From NCBI GenBank assembly GCA_964510585.1, contig CAZECW010000202.1:1-29853 (forward strand): a stretch of 29,853 nucleotides of DNA, read 5' to 3'. The notes under the pieces were generated by a model, which worked only from the letters and a program-made list of their open reading frames with translations, had not been told where the DNA came from and ran no database searches. Shown piece after piece: positions 2,569 through 26,386 of the stretch. This DNA comes from an uncultured archaeon (GTDB lineage Archaea; Asgardarchaeota; Jordiarchaeia; Jordiarchaeales; Jordiarchaeaceae). Within the stretch, counting starts at the first letter, position 1; every line of letters begins with the position of its first letter. A program made the translations under genes and the position numbers.

Positions 2569-3360
2569 TTAAAGTTTCATGTGTTTTTTGAGAATGGCTG
2601 TTTTTTGGGCGCAGGTTTGGAGCAGTTTTCTTGTTCCTCCTGCTTGGCTTATGACTTCGAGCATTTTTTGGGGATTGTAGATTTTTACTCCCATAACAGC
2701 TGTGACTCCTCTTTCAAATAGTGGCTGGGGAGTGAAGCTAGCCGTGGGCCCAACTAACGCCACTTCACGCATTTCCTTACAGTGCTTTAATACGTTGTCG
2801 ACTGTGTGATTCACAAGGGTGCTTCCAGTTATTATTGCAATGTCCTTGTCCATGCTTAATTCCTCGAGTTGCTCTTCCGTGGCAACTTTAACTATAGGAT
2901 TGGAAATATTTCTTCTCTCTATGACCGTTATTTCCCTAGTTTTCTCCAGTAGCTTGGGTATTACTGGTGCAAAGTAGCCTACCATTAAGATTTTGTCATT
3001 CGGCACCACCAAATCCAAAATGTCAGTATCACTGAAAGGATAAAGGTTAGGCTTACTCTTGAAAGCTATTTGGGAAAGAGCGTTTATTGTCGCTACACCT
3101 ATAGCGGCACTTATTAGGTTTCGGGAAGTGGCAAAAAACATCATATCTCGAGCAGTTGAACCCTGTAATTCACCGGCTTCTTCAAGAGTTTCACATTCGG
3201 GAGGGTCTCCTCGTAGAACGTGCGCTAGTCCCGCTTCTCCACTTGAAAGCATTACTCCCGCATATTCTAGCCCTACTCTCACCTCACAGACTCTAACATC
3301 ATCTAAGCACCAGGCTAACTCCTTTTCCAAGTATTTTATTAGACTCTCAACTGAACCCAT
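2569..3360 (-). CDS. DUF364-family Rossmann-like protein (putative heavy-metal chelation domain)
   Basis: Motifs AAIGVATINAL, ILMVGYF, IITGSTLVNHT, LVGPTAS. ATG at 3360 preferred over the track start at 3387. Confidence 0.85.
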   Translation of the reverse strand: MGSVESLIKYLEKELAWCLDDVRVCEVRVGLEYAGVMLSSGEAGLAHVLRGDPPECETLEEAGELQGSTARDMMFFATSRNLISAAIGVATINALSQIAFKSKPNLYPFSDTDILDLVVPNDKILMVGYFAPVIPKLLEKTREITVIERRNISNPIVKVATEEQLEELSMDKDIAIITGSTLVNHTVDNVLKHCKEMREVALVGPTASFTPQPLFERGVTAVMGVKIYNPQKMLEVISQAGGTRKLLQTCAQKTAILKKHMKL

Positions 3361-3536
3361 ACTAAAACCCCTATGGACAACACTCAATCTTTAAATATGC
3401 ATACTAGGATACCAAACTTGGCTAAAAAATCAAGTGTATTTTTCTAGCAATTATTTATTTTCGGCAATACTTGATCTTTGTACAGATTGAGTGTTGATTA
3501 CATAATTGGGAGTGTATGAATAAATCTATTTATTGG

Positions 3537-5150
3537 TTAGCCTAAGGCTCCTCTAATTTTTCCTGCATAGAGAATCAGTTTTTGGGCTATTTCAAACATT
3601 TCTTCTCCCTGAATAATGTCGAAGAGCCCTTCTTTTTTGATGTCCCCCTTGGAGAGGGTGTGTGCTGAGAGGTACTCTGAAATCATATGCACCACTATTT
3701 CGTTGGACATTTCTGGATTCATATCAACATTGATGAATTCATTAATTTGTTTTAAGTCCTCCTTTACCTGTTCGCAGAGCCTTTTTGGCAGTACTTTTTG
3801 GACTGCGTCCATACAGATGAACCTTGAAGCAAAACTTAAGGATTCTTTTAGGGAAGGATAGTAGGTGTCTAGTAGTTTTTCCAGAGCGTCACTCTTCCAC
3901 TCGTTGACGGCGTTTAGTCCGCGTCCAGTGCCAATAAGTTCGGGAGGAAGCCCTATGCTATAAAGTGTGGCGGTAAAGGGAATAGGCTTAACTTTGGACT
4001 CGAATTTAAGTTCTCCAAATTTTAGAAGCTGCTTAGATATTTCTTTCTCCGTACACATTTTGGCCATCTGTTTAATCGTATCCTGGAAGGATGTTTGTCC
4101 GGTATCTTGGACGTTTATTGGCTTCTCGCGTTGGGAGGGGATCAAATCAAATATTCTTGTATCTAGTAGAATTTCATATAGGCTTTCCCAGTATTTGGCT
4201 GTAAATAGGCTAATTATGTTTACCATTTCATTTTTTTCTCTTTTTGAGAATGAGAGTGGTTTCTGCGATTGCAGTTTTTCTCTTAGCAGAGCAGACATTT
4301 TTTGGGTTTCCCTTCGATCAATATCATATCTTAGGCTTGGAGGAATGGTTAACGTTGATATCCCCGCGTATTCGGCTAGAATATTATCCAGATACTTAGG
4401 GTTACAGAATCCTCTGAATGGTAGAAAACCCGCATTTAAGATAGGGTATATTGGTGTGCCGGTTTCCTCTCTGAGCGCCGCAAGATCCGATATGGCGATT
4501 TTGGTGGCGAGTGTGGAGGGTACGAGTCCACAACTCATTGCGCAATCGGATCTTCCAAGAAATATTCTTAAATATCCTAGGGGAGTCAGCATGGAGGGGT
4601 AGGCTTTAAAATATTCCGAGACAATGTTTGAAATGTTTAGTAGGGAGGGCAAGTCCTTTATGAAGGGGATAATTTGAATGTCCTTAAGTTTAGCCGTTGG
4701 ATCAATAGTTTCCAGGATGTAGTTTTTAAGGATGTTAAAGTTCATTTCAATGCGGGTTAGTTCTTTGGGGAACTCTGTAAGGGGGTGGATGACCTCGTAA
4801 ATTGCCCCTCCATTCGTTTCGTTTCTCAAAATATAGTTTACTTCAATTATTTTTTGGAAAATGGCCATCCTTCTGAAACCAGGCTCATAATTGCCTGGGG
4901 GAACACTTGGTGTAAGATTAATGTTGAAGCTGGGAATTAAACCTTTATCCTTTAGTTTTTTAACTATCTCTTCTATGTGGTTAAAGGGTGTTAGTTTGGA
5001 TGTAAAGTCTATTACTTGCTCTTCTATTCCGAATCCTCCATCTTCACGGGAGGATAGACAGGTAACCGCTTCTTCTATCTCTTCGTCGAAACCGACGTAG
5101 GCTGTAGCGGAATCTGCATCTTGGGTTGCAACGGTGGCGGGAACACGCAT
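3537..5150 (-). CDS. ppcA: Archaeal-type phosphoenolpyruvate carboxylase (PpcA) homologue, apparently catalytically degenerate
   Basis: Colinear family motifs GGFGIEE, DFxxKLTP, RIFLGRSD, LPFRG, LRYD, YSIGLPPELIG and terminal GKIRGALG. The TQHPD motif reads TQDAD. ATG at 5150 gives 537 aa. Confidence 0.88.
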   Translation of the reverse strand: MRVPATVATQDADSATAYVGFDEEIEEAVTCLSSREDGGFGIEEQVIDFTSKLTPFNHIEEIVKKLKDKGLIPSFNINLTPSVPPGNYEPGFRRMAIFQKIIEVNYILRNETNGGAIYEVIHPLTEFPKELTRIEMNFNILKNYILETIDPTAKLKDIQIIPFIKDLPSLLNISNIVSEYFKAYPSMLTPLGYLRIFLGRSDCAMSCGLVPSTLATKIAISDLAALREETGTPIYPILNAGFLPFRGFCNPKYLDNILAEYAGISTLTIPPSLRYDIDRRETQKMSALLREKLQSQKPLSFSKREKNEMVNIISLFTAKYWESLYEILLDTRIFDLIPSQREKPINVQDTGQTSFQDTIKQMAKMCTEKEISKQLLKFGELKFESKVKPIPFTATLYSIGLPPELIGTGRGLNAVNEWKSDALEKLLDTYYPSLKESLSFASRFICMDAVQKVLPKRLCEQVKEDLKQINEFINVDMNPEMSNEIVVHMISEYLSAHTLSKGDIKKEGLFDIIQGEEMFEIAQKLILYAGKIRGALG

Positions 5151-5381
5151 AGATTTACACCCTTTTTTCTCTCCTCTGAGTCCCAACATTTTCCAAAAGT
5201 TTCTACTTAATTATTAATATGTTTAAATTAAAAAAACTTAACCTTAGAAAAAGGTTAAAATGATTTAAATGGGTTAAATATAATTCTAGAAATTAATGTT
5301 TCATGGAACATTTAACATTACAAATTTGAATGTTCTCTGCGAAAATAAATTCTGCTCAAAAATTAAATTCGGTGCAGTATC

Positions 5382-5843
5382 ATGCCTGACATTCATATTA
5401 GGGAGTACAAGTTTGAGGATGGGGATGAGGTGGAAGAACTTTTTCGCCACCACACAGAGAAGCACTTACGTAGATCAACGTCCCTTTTCTACAAAAAGGC
5501 TTTGGACGGAAAGCCTCCAGAGGATGTTGTAGCGGTAGTGGCAATTGCTAATGGTAGAGTTGTGGGATTCAGCGGAGTTAAGTTGCTGGGTGAAGGAAAA
5601 GTTATGTATCCCGCCACGATAGTTCATAGGGATTTTAGGAACAGAGGAATTGGAAAAATGCTGATGAGGAAAAAATTGGAAATAGCCCGCGAAAAGGGAC
5701 TTAGAGAGTACACTTCAATTGTTGGTGAGGAAAATATTGCTTCACGCAGAATGTTAGAAAGTCTGGGAAACTTTGAAATTGTTGAAAAAGGGAAATATGA
5801 TGAAAACAAAAAATGGGTAAAATACGCGAAAAAACTTATCTAA
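5382..5843 (+). CDS. GNAT-family N-acetyltransferase
   Basis: Acetyl-CoA motif A (VHRDFRNRGIG) and C-terminal NIASRRMLESLG. Confidence 0.9.
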   Translation: MPDIHIREYKFEDGDEVEELFRHHTEKHLRRSTSLFYKKALDGKPPEDVVAVVAIANGRVVGFSGVKLLGEGKVMYPATIVHRDFRNRGIGKMLMRKKLEIAREKGLREYTSIVGEENIASRRMLESLGNFEIVEKGKYDENKKWVKYAKKLI

Positions 5844-5989
5844 ACTTAAAAATGCTGGGCATGTTTCTTGGAATAGTTTAAAAGGTGGAGAAAAATATTA
5901 AACTCACAACTCAATTCCCCGTCTCTAAAATACCTTTTCAATCAAGAGAGGGAATTGTTTAAATCAGTTATTTTCAGGATGTGTATCCA

Positions 5990-6850
5990 ATGAGCGGTAA
6001 AACAGAAGCTTCCCGACTTCTCAGTGAAGGTAAAGAACTAATCAAAAAGGGAGACTATGAAAAGGCAGAAAAAATGTTCAAAGAAGCGCTGAAAAAATTT
6101 ACAAAAGAAGGTAACAACCGAGGCGTGGCAGAATCTGAAACACATCTGGGAATAGCTCTACAATATCAAGGAAAGTTGAAACAGGCAAAAGAGCACTTAG
6201 AGAGGGCTCTAAAGCTCCATGAGGATTTAGATTACAAGCCGGGAATCTCAAGAGTGTACACAAATCTAGGGAACATAAATCTACTAACATCTAAAGACTT
6301 TGAGAAGTCTCTTGAACTCCACCAAAAAGCTCTAAATATAGCCAGAGAAGCTAAGGACCAAGCGGGAGAAGCCAGGGCCCTTACAAATATTGGCTATGTT
6401 CAATTTAGACAACAAAAACTGGATGAGGCATTGGATACCCTGAATGAAGCCCTAAAAATCGCAAACAATGCCAAAGACGAACACATTCGCGCCGTCGCGT
6501 TATCCAACATAGGAATAATATTGTTCAACATGAAGCGATACGACGAGGCTCTCGAAAAACACAAGGAAGTGGCGGAGATTTTTGAGAAGTGGGGAAACAA
6601 GAAAAGATTAGCAATAGAACACAGACAAATTGGATTAATCTTGGAAAAGCAGAACAGGTACGATGAAGCTGCTAAACACTACCAGATTTCCCAAAAACTT
6701 TACGATGAAACCGGTCAGAAAAGCGAAAAGAAAATGGTGAAATCTATGTTAAACGCGGTAAAGACCAGAAAGAGGGAATGCCCATCATGCAAAACAGTAA
6801 TACTGGTACCAGAGTTAAAATATTGCCCCATCTGTAACAAGGATTTGTAA
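5990..6850 (+). CDS. Tetratricopeptide-repeat protein with C-terminal Zn ribbon
   Basis: About 6 TPR-like repeats (e.g. ARALTNIGYV, AVALSNIGII, SRVYTNLGNI) and terminal CPSC-x12-CPIC. ATG at 5990 (track start is GTG 5981). Confidence 0.88.
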   Translation: MSGKTEASRLLSEGKELIKKGDYEKAEKMFKEALKKFTKEGNNRGVAESETHLGIALQYQGKLKQAKEHLERALKLHEDLDYKPGISRVYTNLGNINLLTSKDFEKSLELHQKALNIAREAKDQAGEARALTNIGYVQFRQQKLDEALDTLNEALKIANNAKDEHIRAVALSNIGIILFNMKRYDEALEKHKEVAEIFEKWGNKKRLAIEHRQIGLILEKQNRYDEAAKHYQISQKLYDETGQKSEKKMVKSMLNAVKTRKRECPSCKTVILVPELKYCPICNKDL

Positions 6851-7001: not shown

Positions 7002-7412
7002 ATGACTAAGAATAATGAGTTAACTCCAAGAATCGCTGTGGATGCCATAATTGTTAAGGGTGACTGCGTAGTCTTAATTAAAAGAAAGAACCCCCCTTTC
7101 CAAGATTATTATGCCCTTCCGGGAGGATTTGTGGAAGTAGGAGAATATGTTGAGGAAGCGGTGGTGAGGGAAGTTAAAGAAGAAACGGGGTTAGATGTTG
7201 AGGTAGAGAAGTTCTCAGGAATCTATGATGATCCAAAGCGTGACCCTCGAGGACACGTTGTAAGTATAGCATATGTTTGTAGGGTGGTGGGTGGAGAACT
7301 TAAAGCCATGACGGATGCCAAAGACGTTTACTGTATACCCATAAAGGAAATTAAAAATATCAAATTAGCTTTTGACCACGCAAAAATTCTCTCAGACGCT
7401 GGAATACTCTAG
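7002..7412 (+). CDS. Nudix hydrolase (ADP-ribose pyrophosphatase-like)
   Basis: Complete Nudix box GGFVEVGEYVEEAVVREVKEETG, plus RDPRGH and LAFDH. Confidence 0.93.
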   Translation: MTKNNELTPRIAVDAIIVKGDCVVLIKRKNPPFQDYYALPGGFVEVGEYVEEAVVREVKEETGLDVEVEKFSGIYDDPKRDPRGHVVSIAYVCRVVGGELKAMTDAKDVYCIPIKEIKNIKLAFDHAKILSDAGIL

Positions 7413-20143: not shown

Positions 20144-21136
20144 TTATGTATTAATTTTGAAAAGCACCTTGTTGTCTTTGAGGTGAGCGGTGACTTTTCC
20201 CAGTTTAATGAGTCTCTGCATGTAGCCGAGGGTGGCACCCTGAAGCATATAGTTACTCTTGTCCACGTTGTAGGATTCCGCGGTTAAATCTTCTAAGGTT
20301 ACACACTTCCTTTTCTCCAAAATATCCAAGAAAATTTGTTCCCTTTTCAGCTTTCTTTCTATGTCTTCCTGTAGCTTTTTGTATGGCTCATTTATGAGTG
20401 GGCCGTGGGCTGGAAGTATAAATTTTAAATCTAATTTTTGCAATCGTTCCAGTGATTTTAGGTATATTGAGATGTTATCAGGTATTTTGTTGTCTGCATC
20501 CAAGATTTCGCGTATCTTTAGTTTGCTCAGTTCTCTCCAACCGTATCCTACGAAGGTGGTTCCTGTTCCAATCACGTGGTCTCCTGAGAACAGAATTTTC
20601 CTATCCTCATCATAGAGACAAATATGTCCGTCGGCGTGACCCGGAGTTTCAATTACTCTTAGATTAAATTTTCCAAATCTGATTATTTCGTTTTCCTTAA
20701 CTTTTCTTTCTACATTTGATTCGTCTATTAAGAGGTTAAAATCCATGTACCTGTCTATCATTTCCTTTATTTTTGGCTCAAACTCTGAATAGAGTAGGCT
20801 GTTTTTGATGCTTAAAATGTGTTGGTGATACTTCTCAATTATTGCTGCAGCTTTATGTGAGGCGATAACAATCGACTTGGATGCATTCTTTATTTTTTGG
20901 TTTCCCCCAAAGTGTTCGACATGTTCATGGGTGTTTATTACTAGTGAAACGTCCTTCAAATTTCTACCTATCTCCTCTAGTTCTGAGACAATCACCTTCA
21001 TTGACCACGCGTCCCCCAATCCAGTATCAATTATGGCTGGCTCTTCACCTTCCAAAAAATAAACATTCAGCTCGGGAGTGGCAGGGAAGGGAAGCTTAAG
21101 CGTGAACATATAAATATCTTCAAAGATTTCCTTCAT
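20144..21136 (-). CDS. MBL-fold hydrolase, LACTB2/glyoxalase-II-like, paralogue 1
   Basis: IIDTG, THEHVEH, TPGHADGH, FSGDHVIG, LPAHGP, and a probable C-terminal winged helix. Confidence 0.88.
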   Translation of the reverse strand: MKEIFEDIYMFTLKLPFPATPELNVYFLEGEEPAIIDTGLGDAWSMKVIVSELEEIGRNLKDVSLVINTHEHVEHFGGNQKIKNASKSIVIASHKAAAIIEKYHQHILSIKNSLLYSEFEPKIKEMIDRYMDFNLLIDESNVERKVKENEIIRFGKFNLRVIETPGHADGHICLYDEDRKILFSGDHVIGTGTTFVGYGWRELSKLKIREILDADNKIPDNISIYLKSLERLQKLDLKFILPAHGPLINEPYKKLQEDIERKLKREQIFLDILEKRKCVTLEDLTAESYNVDKSNYMLQGATLGYMQRLIKLGKVTAHLKDNKVLFKINT

Positions 21137-21232
21137 ATGAACTCACCTCTCCACTAATAGAATTATAAGCATTTAATGGGTGAAAATAAAGATGCTTTAT
21201 TGATTAGAGCCTTCAATCTTTGAGCTCTCTTT

Positions 21233-22219
21233 TCATTTAAGCCTGTAGTAGATTTGGTTTTCTTTTATAACCTTCTCGATTTTTCCAAGCTCCAGGAGCC
21301 TATCAATGTAGGCAAGGGTTGATCCTTTGAGCAGGTGGTCAAGTTGTAATGAGCCGTACACTTTCTGGGTTAAACTTTCTAAGGTTTCCTCACCGCCTTC
21401 AAGGGTTTTCAAAATCATTTGCTCCCTCAAAAGTTTTCGATCCATATCTTCTCTGATTTTCTTGTGAGGCTCAGTGACAATGGGGCCGTGTGCTGGTAAT
21501 ATAAGCTTTATGTCTAAAGGCAACAAGCGTTCAAGTGAATTGATGTAGTGAGTAATGTTCCCATGTTCCACGTTTTTAACACCCATCTTACTTGCCACTC
21601 TATCAACTATCATATCTATAATGCCATAACCCACAAATGGAGTCCCTATGCCGATTACATGATCTCCAGAGAACAGAATTTTCCTCTCCTCATCATAGAA
21701 ACAAATATGACCAGGAGCGTGACCAGGAGTGTGGATGGTTTTAAGAGAGAATTGTCCGAGGTCTATGAGGTCTCCATCGCTTAACTGTTTTTCGACTTTT
21801 GTGGAGCTTATTGAGGATTGAAAGGCCAGGTATCTCTCAGCCACAGCCCGCATTTTAGGATCTATGTCCGCTTCCTTTACTGTGGCGAATAGTTGCAATA
21901 CAAAATCTGAGAAGTTTTGGATAACGTTTGCGGCCTTTTTATGGGCGGAAACTTGGGCTCCTGAATTCTTTTTTATTATTTCATCCCCTGCGAAGTGTTC
22001 TACATGTTCATGAGTATTAAGTATTCTACTAACGTCACTAAGTTTAAGCCCTAAACTGCCCAAAGAATCAGAAATGGCTCGAAAAGATTTCGGGTCACCA
22101 GGCCCCGTATCAATTAATGCGACTTCATCTCCTACAAGTATGTATATATTCATATCAGGGGTCCACGTGAAAGGTAGATTAATTTTTAGCCTGTAAATTC
22201 CTTCAACAATTTTCTCCAA
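21233..22219 (-). CDS. MBL-fold hydrolase, LACTB2/glyoxalase-II-like, paralogue 2
   Basis: LIDTG, THEHVEH, TPGHAPGH, FSGDHVIG, LPAHGP. Colinear with paralogue 1. Confidence 0.88.
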   Translation of the reverse strand: MEKIVEGIYRLKINLPFTWTPDMNIYILVGDEVALIDTGPGDPKSFRAISDSLGSLGLKLSDVSRILNTHEHVEHFAGDEIIKKNSGAQVSAHKKAANVIQNFSDFVLQLFATVKEADIDPKMRAVAERYLAFQSSISSTKVEKQLSDGDLIDLGQFSLKTIHTPGHAPGHICFYDEERKILFSGDHVIGIGTPFVGYGIIDMIVDRVASKMGVKNVEHGNITHYINSLERLLPLDIKLILPAHGPIVTEPHKKIREDMDRKLLREQMILKTLEGGEETLESLTQKVYGSLQLDHLLKGSTLAYIDRLLELGKIEKVIKENQIYYRLK

Positions 22220-22242
22220 CGGAACTCCCTTCTTACTTGAAT

Positions 22243-22404
22243 TTACTCATTGGATTCCGGTTTTGGGTCTGTGTAAGTGGAAAATTGGCTTAGTTCCTCT
22301 TTTGCTATAAGCACTGCACATTCCTTGCAGTACCTTTTTCCTCCGATTGTAACATATTTTCCTTCCTCTAGAATTTTCCCACAGTTAATTACGGCGCACT
22401 TCAT
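22243..22404 (-). CDS. Small treble-clef Zn-finger protein (LIM-half-like)
   Basis: ATG at 22404 follows AGGTGA. Sequence C-x3-NC-GKIL...GGKRYCKEC, 53 aa. Confidence 0.72.
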   Translation of the reverse strand: MKCAVINCGKILEEGKYVTIGGKRYCKECAVLIAKEELSQFSTYTDPKPESNE

Positions 22405-22558
22405 TCCAGTCACCTGTCCAACGCCAATGAATCCAACAAACTTTTTTGTCATTTTAAAGTGTTATAGGGAAACTTTAAACCCTTTCCCTTCACTCATCAC
22501 AAAAACTGGAAAACGCCCCAAAAAGATTCGTGGAGGAAAGCTCTTACAGATGTGGATG

Positions 22559-24073
22559 TTATATTTCCGTGTATAGTTTGAAGGTGATGAGTAAATGCAC
22601 TGATCTGGGTCCGAAAGTAGTGAGTAGATAAATGTTTTCCCTGCTGCCCAACATTAGTTCTCCATTGTGATAGGGGACAGTAATATCTTTTTGCCCATAG
22701 GTGGTTGCTACGATGTGGTCTGGGAAATTGAAATCTGCTCTGTTTTCGGCCGCCATGACTGTGTGTAGTTTCATATCTGGTGACTTTCTCGTCTTTTCCA
22801 CAAACTCGTAGTGGAGTTGGAGAAAGTTTCCAGCCTCATTTTCATTGATTATTAGTGAGGTTGTGGTGTGTTTGGTTCGAATTTGAACCTCGCCATTAGT
22901 AAATTTGGGAAAATTTCTCCTCACACTTGACACTATCTCTTCTAGAGCCGGCTGGACCCATAACAATTGTGTTATGGAAAATGAGTTTAATAGTAAGTCG
23001 AAGTGAAGTTCAATAAAGCTCACACCGCTGCCCTTTATTTCGGTCTCCTCAGTAGGACCAAATATTTGGGTTATGTTGTATGGTTTGGGCAACCGCAAAT
23101 TTTTACCAAAAATCTCTGATTTCTTAGTAATATTTTTTAATTTATACCAGCGGTGCGCATTACGAAAACCCAATATACGTAGCAAGCTCCTCCAAGCCAG
23201 CACCAGTTCTTCGGTGGATTCCCAAAGTCCCCTCACCATCTGCGAAATTTCCATTGTGGGCGTAGCGCTTCCTATAAGAATTCTGCTGAATGAGTTCTGT
23301 ACTAGTCCCGGCTGGGAAAATAGTATTGAGAAAAATTTAGTGGGCGAAACTCCTCCAATGGACCGCGCGTCAACCTCAACCGCGAGATTAGGATGGTATT
23401 TTAAAAGATTAAAGTACTGCAACAAATCGGAACTTATGTCTCCGTTACTGATGATAACTTTGAGTTTCGGGTAAGAATGGAGGAAGCGGTCTATTAATCG
23501 GGGGTCAGTTAATCTCCTATCATTATCAGGTAGGTGCATGTTTCCCGCATCAATCTTCAGTGGAAAATTATGCGAAATGCAGATATCAACTAGGTGTTTG
23601 ATTTTGGGTGCATCCTCCACCAAATTTAACCCCAAGTAGCTTGGATAGATTGCTATTCCCGCAATGGAATCGGGAGTTGTCTTAATATATGAATTCAGTT
23701 CTTTAACAGAATTAGTATCAACGGGGTTAACCGATAAAATAGAGCTGAAAACTTGCTCGTTTAATTTTGCTACTTCAAGCACCCAATCATTGGGGATCCC
23801 ATAAGGTCTTCCAAGCTCCATTCCTTGGAGTAGAACCTTCTCAATTCCACTACACTGTAATTCTAAAGCAAATTCTCCGAGGCCAATCCTCCTATTGTAG
23901 AAGAGGGGATTTCCATTCCGGACTAGACTAAGCAAGTTGCGGACAGATTTCGGTAAGCTTAAATTTTCAAAGATTGGCCAGACCAGGCAGTCCACCATTG
24001 GAAAATCAAAAGGATTTCTAAACATCTCCCCAAATACTGGGCTAAAATCGGGGCAATACAGTCTCTCCAACAT
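22559..24073 (-). CDS. Fusion of a degenerate amidohydrolase-2 domain and a C-terminal YjbQ/UPF0047 domain
   Basis: The N-terminal ~310 aa follow amidohydrolase-2 order (NDWVLEVA, SVNP, GIAIYP, YPKLKVII, RILIGS). The C-terminal ~150 aa contain HTTTSLIINENE, GELMLG and GPR. Confidence 0.75.
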   Translation of the reverse strand: MLERLYCPDFSPVFGEMFRNPFDFPMVDCLVWPIFENLSLPKSVRNLLSLVRNGNPLFYNRRIGLGEFALELQCSGIEKVLLQGMELGRPYGIPNDWVLEVAKLNEQVFSSILSVNPVDTNSVKELNSYIKTTPDSIAGIAIYPSYLGLNLVEDAPKIKHLVDICISHNFPLKIDAGNMHLPDNDRRLTDPRLIDRFLHSYPKLKVIISNGDISSDLLQYFNLLKYHPNLAVEVDARSIGGVSPTKFFSILFSQPGLVQNSFSRILIGSATPTMEISQMVRGLWESTEELVLAWRSLLRILGFRNAHRWYKLKNITKKSEIFGKNLRLPKPYNITQIFGPTEETEIKGSGVSFIELHFDLLLNSFSITQLLWVQPALEEIVSSVRRNFPKFTNGEVQIRTKHTTTSLIINENEAGNFLQLHYEFVEKTRKSPDMKLHTVMAAENRADFNFPDHIVATTYGQKDITVPYHNGELMLGSRENIYLLTTFGPRSVHLLITFKLYTEI

Positions 24074-24119
24074 TTTTACATCTCCACAGAGCTTAATTTT
24101 AATTTTTAATCAGCGGCGA

Positions 24120-24527
24120 CTAGAAGTGAATTTCGTTTCTATAGGGAATAGCTTCTGTTCCACCCACCCCTTGGATGCTATAGCTAGCAATTGTAAGGGC
24201 CATATCTACCATTTCTTCTAAACTCATACCCTCCAAGTATCCCGTTATCAGTCCAGAATCAAATGCGTCGCCAGCTCCGATTGTGTCTATAATGTTTTCA
24301 ACCGGTATTTCCTCAACCACTTCGAATGTGGCTTTTAGAACCGCAGGCTCAGTTAAGATATCCTTGTAGAGGTTGAAGGGATGTTGGGTAGCAGGTTTGG
24401 CTCCTAGGGCTCTATACATTACGGGATATTCTGTAGTTCCTTCAATTTCCCGGTATCTATCTCCCTTTATGAAACTCCAGGCTGCGGGCCTCTCATCATG
24501 TTTCATAACTCTTTTTTCTTGAGCCAT
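24120..24527 (-). pseudogene. Chimeric ORF: SIS-domain sugar isomerase/deglycase N-terminus fused to a PfkB kinase C-terminus
   Basis: HPFNLYKDILTEPAVLKAT resembles the entry to a GlmS/FrlB-type SIS region. It is followed directly by IIDTIGAGDAFDSG...ASYSIQGVGG (PfkB signature 2). Both domains are mostly missing. Confidence 0.65.
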
Positions 24528-24807
24528 TTCTAATACCACTCCAGTATGGGTTAATGGACAAGCTCACCTAAAAATTTAAGCATATTGAAAAAGCTGCTCT
24601 TATTTACTGTGCTTCATCCTTTGAATGTAAAAAATTAGCCGATTTTTATCCAATTTTAATAACAAAAGATAAATTATTTTTTATATTAAAAATATTTAAT
24701 AGTAATATTTTTATTAAAAACATGTTTTTTTCCTGTTTCGAAACTAATATAAGTAACAAATTGGATAATATTGCATAGCAACACAATAAGAGGGTGCGGA
24801 TAGCATA

Positions 24808-25086
24808 ATGCAAAACTCAAAAATCACACAACTCAAATCACTGAAAAGTAGCGTCACCCACTGGTTACACATAGGCAACCTCGTTACAATAGCCTCCTCC
24901 CTAGTAGGTTTGGCCATCGCCTACAGTGCTATGAATTCACTAGCCGTAACCGCACTAGGACTAGTATTCATAGCCTCACTCAGCCTCGAAGTTTTCAGAA
25001 GCAATTTTTTAATCGAGCCGGAGAAGAATGGAACAGCCAAAACGCAGGAAATTAAACAACAAACCAGCCGTAGAAAAAGAAGATAA
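24808..25086 (+). CDS. Small membrane protein (2 predicted TM helices, basic C-terminal tail)
   Basis: ATG follows GAGGGTG. Two hydrophobic stretches and a terminal SRRKRR. Confidence 0.6.
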   Translation: MQNSKITQLKSLKSSVTHWLHIGNLVTIASSLVGLAIAYSAMNSLAVTALGLVFIASLSLEVFRSNFLIEPEKNGTAKTQEIKQQTSRRKRR

Positions 25087-25231
25087 CAATTTTTTCTTTG
25101 TCACTACTTTTATTGGACTTAGCTTTCCTCGGACTCAAACTTTTTTAGTTGAAGCGTAAAAAGAGAGTTTTACTTATTTTTGCTAAAAATTTAAATCTAG
25201 TTAGGGAGAAATACAATAAAAGCAACTAAAA

Positions 25232-26386
25232 ATGGAGGTTAACTTTTTGCCTATTGACTTTGGATTTACCCCCGAACAAGAAGAATTGAGGGCTTCGGTA
25301 AGGGAATGGTGCCAGAAAGAAATCGCACCCCTAGTGGAAGAAATGGAAGCCAAGGAAGAGTTCAACAAGGGTCTTGTCGCCAAATTTAAAAAGAAGTTTC
25401 TGAACATGTGGATTCCCAAGCAGTATGGAGGAACAGAAGCCGACACTGTGGATATTTGCATTGTGGCTGAGGAAGTTGGCTACGTTTGTGGCTCCTGTTT
25501 AACCCTCCTAGAGGTGGGAGGCTTAGGTTGTCTACCCATTGTAATTGGCGGAACTGAGGAACAGAAAAAGAGGTTCCTGCCACCCATAGCCAGTGGAGAG
25601 AAGTTTTATGGATTCGCTTTGACTGATGAGGGCCCAGGCTCTGATCCCGCCAATATGAAGCTAAGAGCCGAAAAAAAAGGTGACGAATATATCCTAAACG
25701 GAATGAAGCGCCTAATTAGCAACTGCGACATTTCAAACAGCATACTCACCTTTGCCAAAACCGATCCCTCAAAAGGAGCAAGGGGCATTAGTGCATTTCT
25801 GATTGATATTGGAACCCCGGGATTTGTGGTTGGAAAGAGGCTGTGGGGTTGGGGTATAAAGGTACACCATACAAACGAGTTAGAATTTCACGACTGCAGA
25901 GTTCCCGCAGATAGATTAATTGGCAAAGAGAATGAGGGATTCGTATACGCCATGAAATGCCTTGACCGAACCAGACTTGTTTTAGCTGCGGGCAATGTGG
26001 GAATAGCTAGAGCGTCCTTCGACATAGCGGTGAAATTTGCGCAGGAAAGAATAGCCTTTGGAAAACCAATATCGGAAAACCAGGCAATAAGCTTTAAACT
26101 TGCCGAGATAGCCACAGAAATTGAAGCCGCACGCCTCCTAGCCTACAAGGCAGCTTGGCTGGACAATAAAAAGGTTCGCCACACCACAGAAACCTCAATG
26201 GCTAAATGGTACGCCTGCGAATTAGCAAGAAAGTCCGCTGAAGCCGCAGTGAAAATATTGGGTGGCTATGGGTGGAGTAAGGACTACCCAGTAATGATAC
26301 ACTTACACGACGCCCTAGGATTCATTAACGCCCAGGGAACTACAGAAATACACAAAATGATAATTTCCAGAGCAATTTTCGACTAA
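25232..26386 (+). CDS. Acyl-CoA dehydrogenase-family flavoprotein with non-canonical active site
   Basis: FTPEQEEL, GSDPA, LNGMK, RIAFGKPI, ILGGYG. The usual YEGT motif reads AQGT. Confidence 0.92.
   Translation: MEVNFLPIDFGFTPEQEELRASVREWCQKEIAPLVEEMEAKEEFNKGLVAKFKKKFLNMWIPKQYGGTEADTVDICIVAEEVGYVCGSCLTLLEVGGLGCLPIVIGGTEEQKKRFLPPIASGEKFYGFALTDEGPGSDPANMKLRAEKKGDEYILNGMKRLISNCDISNSILTFAKTDPSKGARGISAFLIDIGTPGFVVGKRLWGWGIKVHHTNELEFHDCRVPADRLIGKENEGFVYAMKCLDRTRLVLAAGNVGIARASFDIAVKFAQERIAFGKPISENQAISFKLAEIATEIEAARLLAYKAAWLDNKKVRHTTETSMAKWYACELARKSAEAAVKILGGYGWSKDYPVMIHLHDALGFINAQGTTEIHKMIISRAIFD

What the first reader, a model, noticed from the sequence alone, without database searches (positions are those of the whole stretch)
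3537..5150. Full-length PEP-carboxylase homologue with a dismantled active site (candidate pseudoenzyme)
Seen: an intact 537-codon ORF that aligns almost residue-for-residue with Clostridium perfringens-type archaeal PEPC (reference recalled from memory, so verify it). Substitutions: catalytic His11 TQHPD to TQDAD (GAT codon at 5118-5120); Arg82 TPRIP to TPSVP; presumed Mg-ligand Glu IPLVED to IPFIKD (a charge reversal); Lys340 IPKNRDR to IPSQREK; TxQS to TIPP; PRAI to VKPI. RSD, PFRG and the C-terminal RG.LG survive. Many targeted losses with no frameshift or truncation argue against decay or sequencing error. Inference: the barrel is kept as a metabolite sensor, a scaffold, or a regulatory subunit of an active PpcA hetero-oligomer.
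Basis: partly seen in the sequence, partly recalled or inferred. Interest (0 to 1): 0.8.

Follow-up and report, generated by a model that had tools for sequence, protein, structure and literature searches.

The report
Catalytically dead PEP carboxylase paralogue
An Asgard archaeon (Freyarchaeia) keeps, beside a normal PEP carboxylase, a second full-length copy that has lost its catalytic residues yet is strongly conserved and always sits next to a DUF364 gene, so it is a repurposed, probably non-catalytic protein that databases wrongly call PEP carboxylase.

Summary
Window 3537-5150 (-) encodes an intact 537-aa archaeal-type PEPC (PepcA) homologue: PF14010 and TIGR02751 are matched end to end, and the AF2 model has TM 0.91-0.94 to 3ODM. 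The catalytic His11 is Asp. Arg82, the metal-ligand Glu165 (= E. coli E506), Gln270, Arg343, Arg354 and Arg388 are also replaced.

It is not decay. Eleven of 11 genomes of the order carry the orthologue at the same locus, with dN/dS about 0.1, equal to the canonical ppcA that each genome also has elsewhere. The two sub-lineages eroded different catalytic residues: Glu165 in one, Asp202 in the other, and His11 became D/T/N/S. Constraint has moved from the catalytic loops to outer helices 91-105 and 129-149. A DUF364 gene lies directly downstream in all 11 genomes, inside a conserved NUDIX-TPR-PEPC-like-DUF364 block.

Best reading: a PepcA-derived pseudoenzyme acting by binding or scaffolding. 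A new enzymatic activity is the main rival. A hetero-oligomer with PpcA is untested. Novelty: new variant of a known kind. Interest is moderate.

The parts
3537..5150 (-). PepcA-like CDS (537 aa plus TAA stop), protein P0001. The TIM-barrel fold is intact and the PEPC catalytic set is incomplete.
5118..5120 (-). Codon 11, GAT = Asp, in place of the family-invariant catalytic His (TQHPD motif). It is D in all 9 close orthologues and T/D/T/N/S in the sister lineage.
4905..4907 (-). Codon 82, AGT = Ser, in place of an invariant Arg (TPRIP). Lost only in this sub-lineage.
4656..4658 (-). Codon 165, AAG = Lys, in place of the metal-ligand Glu (equivalent to E. coli PEPC Glu506).
4545..4547 (-). Codon 202, GAT = Asp: the second metal ligand (equivalent to E. 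coli Asp543). It is retained here but lost (N/N/A/L/V) in the sister lineage.
4341..4343 (-). Codon 270, CCT = Pro, in place of an invariant Gln (TxQS motif).
4122..4124 (-). Codon 343, AAG = Lys, in place of an invariant Arg (RxR motif). It is variable (K/Q/N/R/A/S) across the clade.
3984..3992 (-). Codons 387-389, Val-Lys-Pro, in place of the invariant Pro-Arg-Ala (LPRAI motif).
4836..4880 (-). Residues 91-105 (barrel helix alpha3). This is the most conserved stretch of the divergent clade, whereas it shows only average conservation in canonical PpcA of the same genomes.
4704..4766 (-). Residues 129-149 (barrel helix alpha4). It carries the clade-specific invariant residues E135, N139, I140, K142, N143, Y144 and L146.
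2569..3360 (-). DUF4213/DUF364 gene (263 aa, P0222), 176 nt downstream on the same strand. It is adjacent to the PEPC-like gene in 11/11 genomes of the order.
5382..5843 (+). GNAT acetyltransferase, divergently transcribed. It is present at this position in the close (same-genus) orthologous loci only.
5981..6850 (+). TPR-repeat protein, part of the block conserved across the order (33% identity to the L012 counterpart).
7002..7412 (+). NUDIX hydrolase, part of the conserved block (63% identity to the L012 counterpart).

Best explanation
The gene encodes a PepcA-derived pseudoenzyme: a well-folded archaeal-type PEPC barrel that can no longer carboxylate PEP and has been kept for another job.

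Shown here:
1. It lacks the catalytic His, one of the two metal ligands and four invariant arginines.
2. It is an order-wide orthologous family in Freyarchaeia/Jordarchaeia-type Asgard archaea, under purifying selection as strong as that on the genuine ppcA each genome also carries.
3. After catalysis was lost on the stem, the remaining catalytic residues eroded differently in the two sub-lineages.
4. Selective constraint has moved from the catalytic loops to outer barrel helices alpha3 and alpha4 and to the C-terminal helical domain.
5. The gene is always followed by a DUF364 gene, inside a conserved NUDIX-TPR-PEPC-like-DUF364 block.

Inferred:
- The protein acts by binding, not catalysis. 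It probably uses the newly constrained helical surface for protein-protein contact: its own oligomer, or a partner encoded in the block.
- It possibly still holds an anionic ligand in the residual basic half-pocket (Lys52, Arg195, Arg246, Arg341, Arg533, all retained).
- Its origin is a second, long-type PepcA (nearest active relative in Odinarchaeia) that became redundant beside the resident short-type enzyme.
For: Loss of the catalytic set:
- Searches show the substitutions.
- hhalign and HMM mapping equate Glu165, Asp202 and Arg246 with E. coli E506, D543 and R587.
- His138, His579 and R587 of E. coli PEPC are reported as important for catalysis (PMC11832675, citing Terada & Izui 1991).

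Fold intact: pLDDT 91.3, pTM 0.93, and TM 0.91-0.94 to 3ODM.

Selection:
- dN/dS is 0.07-0.18 in the close clade and 0.10-0.12 in the sister clade.
- The canonical ppcA gives 0.10-0.13.

Distribution: 11/11 genomes of the order have both the divergent and the canonical copy. It was found in none of the other 140 Asgard genomes sampled.

Mosaic erosion:
- His11 became D/T/D/T/N/S.
- Glu165 was lost only in g1 and Asp202 only in f2.
- Arg343 and Arg388 are variable.
- None of the 26 columns not classed as kept (21 lost, 5 mixed) is invariant across the 14 sequences. Background is 16%, and 30/35 of the kept columns are invariant (Fisher p = 0.013 for the 26, p = 4e-21 for the kept).

Constraint shift with matched taxa:
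- Canonical entropy minima sit at the catalytic loops (0.26-0.6).
- Divergent minima sit at residues 91-105 (0.45) and 136-150 (0.63), while the catalytic loops score 1.1-1.7.

Clade-specific invariant residues cluster on helices 92-107 and 129-149 and at positions 446-453 and 489-493.

Synteny.

Phylogeny: (Odin canonical P0052, (f2, g1)) with support 99/98.
Against: - No biochemical data exist.
- Thirty family-conserved positions stay invariant, including polar residues on the catalytic face: Gln10, Lys52 and Arg246. Arg195 and Arg341 are also retained, although their location in the barrel was not established.
- Three shared derived residues (Ser74, Asn250, Ser272) also lie on the catalytic face. 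Together with the previous point, this could equally mean a working, altered active site.
- The invariable neighbour DUF364 belongs to an enzyme family, which suits a two-enzyme pathway as well as it suits a complex.
- I could not map the conserved helices onto the 3ODM oligomer interfaces, because no coordinates were available to me. The 'interface' reading is therefore inference.
- All 11 genomes belong to one order, so part of the synteny may be inherited rather than selected.
Confidence: 0.5

Rival explanations
1. Neofunctionalised enzyme. The barrel has exchanged Mg-dependent PEP carboxylation for a different, probably metal-independent reaction on a phosphorylated or carboxylated small molecule. 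It would work in a two-step pathway with the DUF364 enzyme encoded downstream, possibly also with the NUDIX hydrolase.
For: - The pairing with DUF364 holds in 11/11 genomes, with a 17-nt gap or overlap in the sister lineage.
- DUF364 is an enzyme family. Its only characterised member cyclises 4''-methyl-SAM (PMC12930334), and the 3L5O structure paper proposes a catalytic cleft (PMC2954201).
- Half of the catalytic-face residues are strictly kept, and Ser74, Asn250 and Ser272 are shared derived residues there.
- dN/dS is about 0.1.
Against: - Former catalytic positions are variable within and between the two lineages: position 11 is D/T/N/S, and 165/202 are lost reciprocally, with 343 and 388 variable. 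A fixed new catalytic constellation would look different.
- The catalytic loops are now among the least constrained parts of the protein, while outer helices are the most constrained.
- No complete metal site remains in either lineage.
Confidence: 0.3
2. Regulatory or structural subunit of a hetero-oligomer with the genome's active PpcA. The analogy is the plant class-2 PEPC hetero-octamer.
For: - Every genome with the dead copy also has an active copy.
- PepcA and bacterial or plant PEPCs are dimer-of-dimer tetramers, and plants do build hetero-oligomers of divergent PEPC paralogues (PMC8100219).
- The strongest constraint lies on outer helices that could be an oligomer interface. In E. coli PEPC the inter-subunit salt bridge Glu433-Arg438 lies in the equivalent alpha3 region (my own recollection, not checked here).
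Against: - The two paralogues come from the two deepest PepcA clades and share only about 26% identity.
- They are unlinked: different contigs here, and about 527 kb apart in the complete F. deiterrae genome.
- Some other Asgard lineages have the same canonical enzyme without the dead copy.
- Gene order ties the dead copy to DUF364, TPR and NUDIX instead.
- The hypothesis was not tested by modelling, because the pair exceeds the 1000-residue limit.
Confidence: 0.12
3. Still a PEP carboxylase that uses substitute residues.
For: - It scores above the TIGR02751 equivalog cut-off, and sources annotate it as PEPC.
- Arg246 (= E. coli R587), Asp202 and the C-terminal Gly are kept.
Against: - The catalytic His is absent and its replacement is not conserved.
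- One metal ligand is missing in each lineage.
- Four invariant arginines are gone.
- E. coli His138 is reported essential for the carboxylation step (PMC11832675, citing Terada & Izui 1991).
- A fully canonical ppcA is present in the same genome.
Confidence: 0.03
4. Recently inactivated gene on its way to becoming a pseudogene, or a sequencing or assembly artefact.
For: Many conserved residues are lost at once.
Against: - There is no stop or frameshift in any of 14 or more orthologues from independent assemblies.
- dN/dS is about 0.1 in pairs with unsaturated dS.
- The gene is retained across lineages whose canonical PpcA is only 47-50% identical.
- Near-identical DNA occurs in several independent hot-spring metagenome studies.
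Confidence: 0.02

Closest known systems
Archaeal-type PEP carboxylase PepcA (Clostridium perfringens, PDB 3ODM; PF14010 / TIGR02751)
   Same: Homologous over the full length (E 1e-83, about 30% identity). Same TIM-barrel plus helical-domain fold (TM 0.91-0.94). Retains Gln10, Lys52, Arg195, Asp202, the PFRG loop Arg246, Arg341, Arg533 and the C-terminal Gly.
   Different: Lacks His11, Arg82, the metal-ligand Glu, Gln270, Arg343/344, Arg354 and Arg388. The catalytic loops are no longer the most constrained regions. Outer helices alpha3 and alpha4 carry clade-specific invariant residues. It is fixed next to a DUF364 gene.
Canonical PpcA of the same genome (contig C39, protein P0051)
   Same: Same family and fold, and a similar dN/dS.
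   Different: It belongs to the other deep (short, about 490 aa) PepcA clade, shares about 26% identity, has all 13 key residues intact, and is unlinked.
Plant bacterial-type PEPC (BTPC) in class-2 PEPC hetero-octamers (as reviewed in PMC8100219)
   Same: A divergent PEPC paralogue that coexists with the housekeeping enzyme and changes its regulation by forming a hetero-oligomer. It is a conceptual precedent for the 'regulatory subunit' idea.
   Different: BTPC is catalytically active and belongs to the large bacterial/plant PEPC type. No association with PpcA is shown here.
Other degenerate PepcA homologues found here (P0102, bacterial; P0127, Woesearchaeota; P0142)
   Same: Full-length PF14010 proteins lacking 6-9 of 13 key residues, including the catalytic His.
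   Different: They are independent lineages on the tree. There is no DUF364 neighbour. P0102 sits behind a GGDEF gene near PAS/His-kinase genes.

Membership tests
Archaeal-type PEP carboxylase (PepcA, EC 4.1.1.31; PF14010, TIGR02751) | Full-length sequence match above the curated thresholds | tested here: met
   PF14010 276.3 bits (cut-off 25), covering 1-493/493. TIGR02751 276.9 bits (cut-off 146), covering 1-506/506.
Archaeal-type PEP carboxylase (PepcA, EC 4.1.1.31; PF14010, TIGR02751) | PepcA fold (eight-stranded TIM barrel plus C-terminal helices) | tested here: met
   The AF2 model has pLDDT 91.3 and pTM 0.93 with 8 strands. Foldseek top hits are the 3ODM chains, TM 0.91-0.94.
Archaeal-type PEP carboxylase (PepcA, EC 4.1.1.31; PF14010, TIGR02751) | Catalytic His of the (T/S)QHPD motif (counterpart of E. 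coli His138) | tested here: not met
   Asp11 here. His is present in 96% of 107 active-looking PepcAs and absent in all 14 members of the divergent clade. The equivalence to E. coli His138 rests on established knowledge, not on an alignment made here.
Archaeal-type PEP carboxylase (PepcA, EC 4.1.1.31; PF14010, TIGR02751) | Both divalent-metal ligands (Glu of IPLxE = E. coli E506; Asp of RSD = E. coli D543) | tested here: not met
   Glu165 is Lys (K/R/G in the clade) and Asp202 is kept. The sister lineage shows the reverse pattern. The mapping is by hmmsearch and hhalign.
Archaeal-type PEP carboxylase (PepcA, EC 4.1.1.31; PF14010, TIGR02751) | Invariant substrate-binding arginines (Arg82, Arg343, Arg354, Arg388; Arg246 = E. 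coli R587) | tested here: not met
   Arg82 to Ser, Arg343 to Lys, Arg354 to Ser, Arg388 to Lys. Only Arg246, Arg195, Arg341 and Arg533 are kept.
Archaeal-type PEP carboxylase (PepcA, EC 4.1.1.31; PF14010, TIGR02751) | PEP carboxylase activity | not testable with these tools
   Needs an enzyme assay.
Pseudoenzyme (catalytically inactive homologue of an enzyme, retained by selection) | Clear homology and the fold of an active enzyme family | tested here: met
Pseudoenzyme (catalytically inactive homologue of an enzyme, retained by selection) | Loss of residues essential for the ancestral reaction | tested here: met
Pseudoenzyme (catalytically inactive homologue of an enzyme, retained by selection) | Purifying selection and retention across species | tested here: met
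   dN/dS 0.07-0.18. Retained in 11/11 genomes of the order.
Pseudoenzyme (catalytically inactive homologue of an enzyme, retained by selection) | No catalytic activity of any kind | not testable with these tools
   The relaxed, lineage-specific erosion of the old site argues for this, but a new activity is not excluded.

The most novel reading that the evidence does not exclude
The dead PEPC barrel is the non-catalytic partner of the DUF364 protein, and its residual Arg/Lys half-pocket has been re-used to hold an oxyanion or phospho-metabolite. One candidate is tungstate or molybdate. DUF364 genes elsewhere sit with Mo/W transport, NifX-like and AFOR genes, and Freyarchaeia express many tungsten-type aldehyde oxidoreductases. 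That would make it the first PEPC-derived ligand carrier or regulator and would give DUF364 a defined partner.
Probability: 0.12. Interest if true: 0.75.

Novelty: new variant of a known kind. Interest (0 to 1): 0.55.

Why it matters
- **Annotation.** NCBI, JGI and the TIGR02751 'equivalog' model all call this protein phosphoenolpyruvate carboxylase. Metabolic reconstructions of Freyarchaeia/Jordarchaeia therefore count a carboxylase that almost certainly is not one.
- **Biology.** I found no report of a catalytically dead PEPC of either type in the held literature. This one is conserved across an Asgard order with a fixed DUF364 neighbour. That offers a handle on a very poorly understood family, in which only one DUF364 enzyme has been characterised.
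- **Evolution.** It is a clean example of an apparently redundant enzyme being repurposed. The ancestral active site was dismantled in different ways in the two sister lineages, while a new surface came under constraint.
- **Wider pattern.** At least two further independent degenerate PepcA lineages exist, which suggests the barrel is recurrently recruited for non-carboxylase roles.

Tried and rejected
- **Complex prediction**, PEPC-like (P0001) with the DUF364 neighbour (P0222): verdict 'no answer', score 0.00. Not evidence either way.
- **Expression**: no RNA holder was listed for the window gene or for the F. deiterrae orthologue. The supplements of PMC11291895 hold no hit for PEPC or DUF364.
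- **Literature**: the 3ODM structure paper and Ettema et al. 2004 are not held. Roles of individual PepcA residues therefore rest on family invariance, on mapping to E. coli PEPC and on my own knowledge. Searches for 'pseudoenzyme' plus PEPC and for Freyarchaeia plus PEPC found nothing relevant.
- **Earlier scan notes**: nothing on this gene or its relatives.
- **ESM Atlas**: only ordinary PEPcase_2 clusters.
- **Rejected, decay or pseudogene**: dN/dS and retention argue against it.
- **Rejected, sequencing error**: the substitutions are shared by independent assemblies.
- **Rejected, recent duplication of the resident ppcA**: the two copies fall in different deep clades.
the position is not conserved in active PepcAs.
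- **DUF364 as an obligate companion of PEPC-like genes in general**: rejected. Thirty-two other Asgard genomes have DUF364 without the PEPC-like gene. There it sits next to Nitro_FeMo-Co, AFOR, heavy-metal ATPase or methyltransferase genes.
- **Small ORF downstream of DUF364**: not detectably conserved between the two lineages.
Full report
**1. What is in the sequence**

On the minus strand an ORF runs from ATG 5150 to TAA 3537-3539. It is 537 codons with no internal stop. An in-frame ATG at 5189 would add 13 residues. All orthologues begin at the MR(V/I)P start, so 5150 is the conserved start.

The protein (P0001) matches Pfam PEPcase_2 (PF14010) over the whole model at 276 bits. It matches the NCBIfam equivalog TIGR02751 at 276.9 bits against a cut-off of 146. 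It aligns end to end with the only solved archaeal-type PEPC, C. perfringens PepcA 3ODM, at E 1e-83.

An AlphaFold2 model built on a 61-sequence alignment is confident (pLDDT 91.3, pTM 0.93). It shows the eight-stranded barrel and superposes on 3ODM with TM 0.91-0.94.

**2. The substitutions are real and non-random**

- TQHPD to TQDAD
- TPRIP to TPSVP
- IPLVED to IPFIKD
- TxQS to TIPP
- IPKNRDR to IPSQREK
- PRAI to VKPI

The Asp11 codon is GAT at 5118-5120.

To avoid relying on memory, I aligned 118 full-length PepcA proteins. These came from a word-indexed search and an exhaustive search of 1.84 billion representatives. In the 107 sequences outside the divergent clade, 61 columns are at least 85% conserved, and P0001 differs at 20 of them: His11, Pro12, Glu50, Gly51, Gly74, Arg82, Leu163, Glu165, Gly239, Gln270, Ser271, Arg343, Tyr352, Arg354 and Pro387-Arg388-Ala389 are among them.

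It keeps Gln10, Asp13, Glu24/27/44, Asp48, Lys52, Arg195, Ser201, Asp202, the PFRG loop with Arg246, Thr266, Asp276, Arg341, Arg533 and the C-terminal Gly.

A PepcA profile aligned to maize and E. coli PEPC (hmmsearch; hhalign against E. coli Ppc) gives three equivalences:
- Glu165 corresponds to E. coli Glu506.
- Asp202 corresponds to Asp543.
- Arg246 corresponds to Arg587.

From established knowledge, Glu506 and Asp543 are the Mn2+/Mg2+ ligands. [quoted passage not shown] The equivalence of PepcA His11 and E. coli His138 is textbook knowledge plus family invariance. It is not an alignment I could produce here.

One item in the finding is wrong in emphasis. C. perfringens Lys340 is not conserved, and the fully canonical Odinarchaeial protein P0052 also has Ser there. 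The real loss in that motif is Arg343.

**3. A canonical ppcA exists in the same genome**

A family search of the window's own assembly (3.78 Mb, 217 contigs, 96% complete) finds two PEPcase_2 genes. One is this gene. The other, on contig C39, scores 640 bits. That second protein (P0051) carries SQHPD, LRVPNP, IPLVED, ARSD, PFRG, TLQS, RRKRK and LPRAI. It was not flagged at any of the 13 key positions.

**4. Who else has it**

The organism is an Asgard archaeon of the Freyarchaeia/Jordarchaeia group, judging by the source names of near relatives. The DNA recurs in hot-spring metagenomes.

Among 151 sampled genomes of the phylum, the divergent gene is present as follows:
- In all 6 genomes of the window's genus (73-100% identity).
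- In all 5 genomes of a second family of the same order (35-38% identity).
- In none of the other 140 genomes.

All 11 carriers also have a canonical copy. In the complete genome of Ca. Freyarchaeum deiterrae the two copies lie about 527 kb apart.

The 35-38% relatives occupy the same locus: TPR gene, PEPC-like gene, DUF364 gene, with NUDIX nearby. They are therefore orthologues.

On a maximum-likelihood tree the two divergent lineages are sisters (SH-aLRT 98). Together they are sister to a fully canonical Odinarchaeial enzyme (99), inside the 'long' PepcA clade. The genome's canonical enzyme sits with other Asgard sequences in the other deep clade. The dead copy is thus not a recent duplicate of the resident enzyme. 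It derives from a second, distantly related PepcA.

**5. It is under selection, and the selection has moved**

Pairwise dN/dS values:
- Close clade: 0.07-0.18. The least saturated pair has dS 0.55-0.65 and omega 0.11-0.13.
- Sister clade: 0.10-0.12.
- Canonical ppcA between the same genomes: 0.10-0.13.

Between the two families of the order, the PEPC-like protein is 35-38% identical, its DUF364 neighbour 41-43% and canonical PpcA 47-50%. It evolves somewhat faster than the enzyme but is far from unconstrained.

Across 14 divergent sequences, the 61 family-conserved columns split as follows:
- 35 are kept, and 30 of these are invariant against a 16% background (Fisher p = 4e-21).
- 9 are lost in both lineages: His11, Pro12, Glu50, Gly74, Gly239, Gln270, Arg343, Arg354 and Arg388.
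- 3 are lost only in the window's genus: Arg82, Glu165 and Pro387.
- 9 are lost only in the sister family, including Ser201 and Asp202.
- 5 are mixed.

The replacements are not fixed. Position 11 is D in one lineage and T/D/T/N/S in the other. Position 165 is K/R/G. Position 202 is N/N/A/L/V. Position 388 is K/G/E/A/S/P. None of the 26 columns not classed as kept is invariant across the clade.

So catalysis was lost on the stem, and the remains of the site then eroded independently. The two lineages even lost opposite members of the metal-ligand pair.

I also made a like-for-like comparison, using the same six genomes for both paralogues:
- Canonical PpcA is most constrained at the catalytic loops. 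Entropy is 0.26 at residues 1-15, 0.28 at 196-210 and 0.28 at 346-360.
- The divergent protein is most constrained at helix 91-105 (0.45) and helix 136-150 (0.63).
- In the divergent protein the catalytic loops are at or above its mean: 1.24 at 76-90, 1.20 at 151-165, 1.12 at 196-210, 1.69 at 346-360 and 1.53 at 376-390.

Clade-specific invariant residues that are rare in active PepcAs cluster in four places:
- Helix 129-149: E135, N139, I140, K142, N143, Y144 and L146.
- Helix 92-107: R94 and I97.
- Positions 446-453.
- Positions 489-493.

A few also lie on the catalytic face (Ser74, Asn250, Ser272).

**6. Surroundings**

Directly downstream on the same strand lies a DUF4213/DUF364 gene (2569-3360, 263 aa).

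In all 11 genomes of the order there is exactly one DUF364 gene, and it follows the PEPC-like gene:
- The gap is 17 nt or an overlap in the sister family.
- The gap is 90-180 nt in this genus.
- Two genomes have an ApbA-type gene inserted in between.

The wider conserved block is NUDIX (63% identity between the families), a TPR protein (33%), PEPC-like (37%) and DUF364 (42%). A GNAT gene is added in this genus.

DUF364 is not tied to PEPC-like genes elsewhere. Thirty-two other Asgard genomes have it alone, next to Nitro_FeMo-Co, aldehyde:ferredoxin oxidoreductase, heavy-metal ATPase or methyltransferase genes.

The literature gives DUF364 three associations:
- A proposed role in metal (Mo/W/V/Fe) handling (PMC2954201).
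- A cofitness link to modABC in Methanococcus (bioRxiv 10.1101/2024.03.05.583561).
- One characterised enzyme, a 4''-methyl-SAM cyclase (PMC12930334).

**7. Interpretation**

What is shown: a structurally intact PepcA homologue lacks the residues needed for PEP carboxylation. It is retained under purifying selection in a whole Asgard order beside a genuine ppcA. Its constraint has shifted from the active-site loops to outer helices, and it is fixed next to DUF364.

What is inferred: it works by binding rather than catalysis. The conserved helices would form a protein-protein surface, and the retained basic residues may still hold an anion.

My estimates for the readings:
- Non-catalytic binder or scaffold not involving PpcA: about 0.5.
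- New enzymatic activity in a pathway with DUF364: 0.3.
- Regulator of PpcA in a hetero-oligomer: about 0.12.
- Residual PEPC activity: 0.03.
- Decay or artefact: 0.02.

The main argument for the pseudoenzyme reading over the new-enzyme reading is that the former catalytic positions are variable and lineage-specific, and the catalytic loops are relaxed. The main argument the other way is that about half of the catalytic-face residues remain invariant and that the partner gene belongs to an enzyme family.

**8. Comparison with known systems, and novelty**

By sequence and fold the protein belongs to the PepcA family. By the defining catalytic features it fails membership as an EC 4.1.1.31 enzyme.

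Plant class-2 PEPC complexes (PMC8100219) are the nearest precedent for a divergent PEPC paralogue acting as a subunit, but that paralogue is active.

I found no report of a dead PEPC in the searchable literature. In my own data at least two further independent degenerate PepcA lineages exist:
- P0102, in a bacterial contig behind a GGDEF gene.
- P0127, from Woesearchaeota, grouping with P0142.

I classify this as a new variant of a known kind: a pseudoenzyme or repurposed paralogue of a known enzyme family. Its practical consequence is that current annotations of these genes as PEP carboxylase are probably wrong.

**9. What did not work**

- The complex prediction with DUF364 gave no answer.
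- No RNA-seq holder was listed.
- I had no coordinates with which to place the conserved helices on the 3ODM tetramer.

These gaps define the next steps listed separately.

Noticed in passing
L037:5001-6587 (protein P0102): An independent, bacterial PepcA homologue lacks 6 of 13 key residues (His to Ser, Arg to Trp, Glu to Gln and others). It lies 30 nt downstream of a GGDEF gene and near a PAS/His-kinase gene and response-regulator genes. It may be a second, unrelated recruitment of the PEPC barrel, here in a signalling context.
   Followed up: partly
proteins P0127 (Woesearchaeota MAG) and P0142 (L039:302-1858): Another pair of degenerate PepcA homologues, with 9 and 6 of 13 key residues changed. 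They group together in the short-type clade. Their genomic context was not informative.
   Followed up: partly
L012:4054-5830 and L014:3823-5598: A TnpB-like (Cas12f1-like_TNB/MJ0013) gene plus a resolvase/HTH gene, i.e. an IS element, is inserted between the NUDIX and TPR genes of the conserved block in the sister-family loci.
   Followed up: no
L005:7790-8803 (also implied in G029:C277): An ApbA/ketopantoate-reductase-like gene is inserted on the opposite strand between the PEPC-like and DUF364 genes in some genomes of the genus. This shows the pair need not be co-transcribed there.
   Followed up: no
L003:11063-12328 and L007:12271-13536: A malic enzyme gene and rubredoxin genes lie a few kb beyond DUF364 in two orthologous loci. 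In the window that side instead carries an M20 peptidase (812-1981).
   Followed up: no
window 3361-3536: The 176-nt AT-rich spacer between the PEPC-like stop and the DUF364 start contains a T-run (GATTTTTTAG) and a TATA-like ATATTTAAAG about 35 nt before the DUF364 ATG. DUF364 may therefore have its own promoter in this genus. No tool was suitable for archaeal promoters.
   Followed up: no
window 5151-5189: An upstream in-frame ATG gives a 550-aa reading that one source (JGI, P0002) annotates. The extension is not conserved in orthologues.
   Followed up: yes
window 3967-4602 (+): A 211-aa antisense ORF lies inside the PEPC-like gene. It was not examined further and is most likely a chance open frame.
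   Followed up: no
window 20144-26386: Earlier scan notes flag several other enzymes in this window with non-canonical catalytic motifs: an amidohydrolase-YjbQ fusion, LACTB2-like paralogues and an acyl-CoA dehydrogenase homologue. I did not examine them.
   Followed up: no
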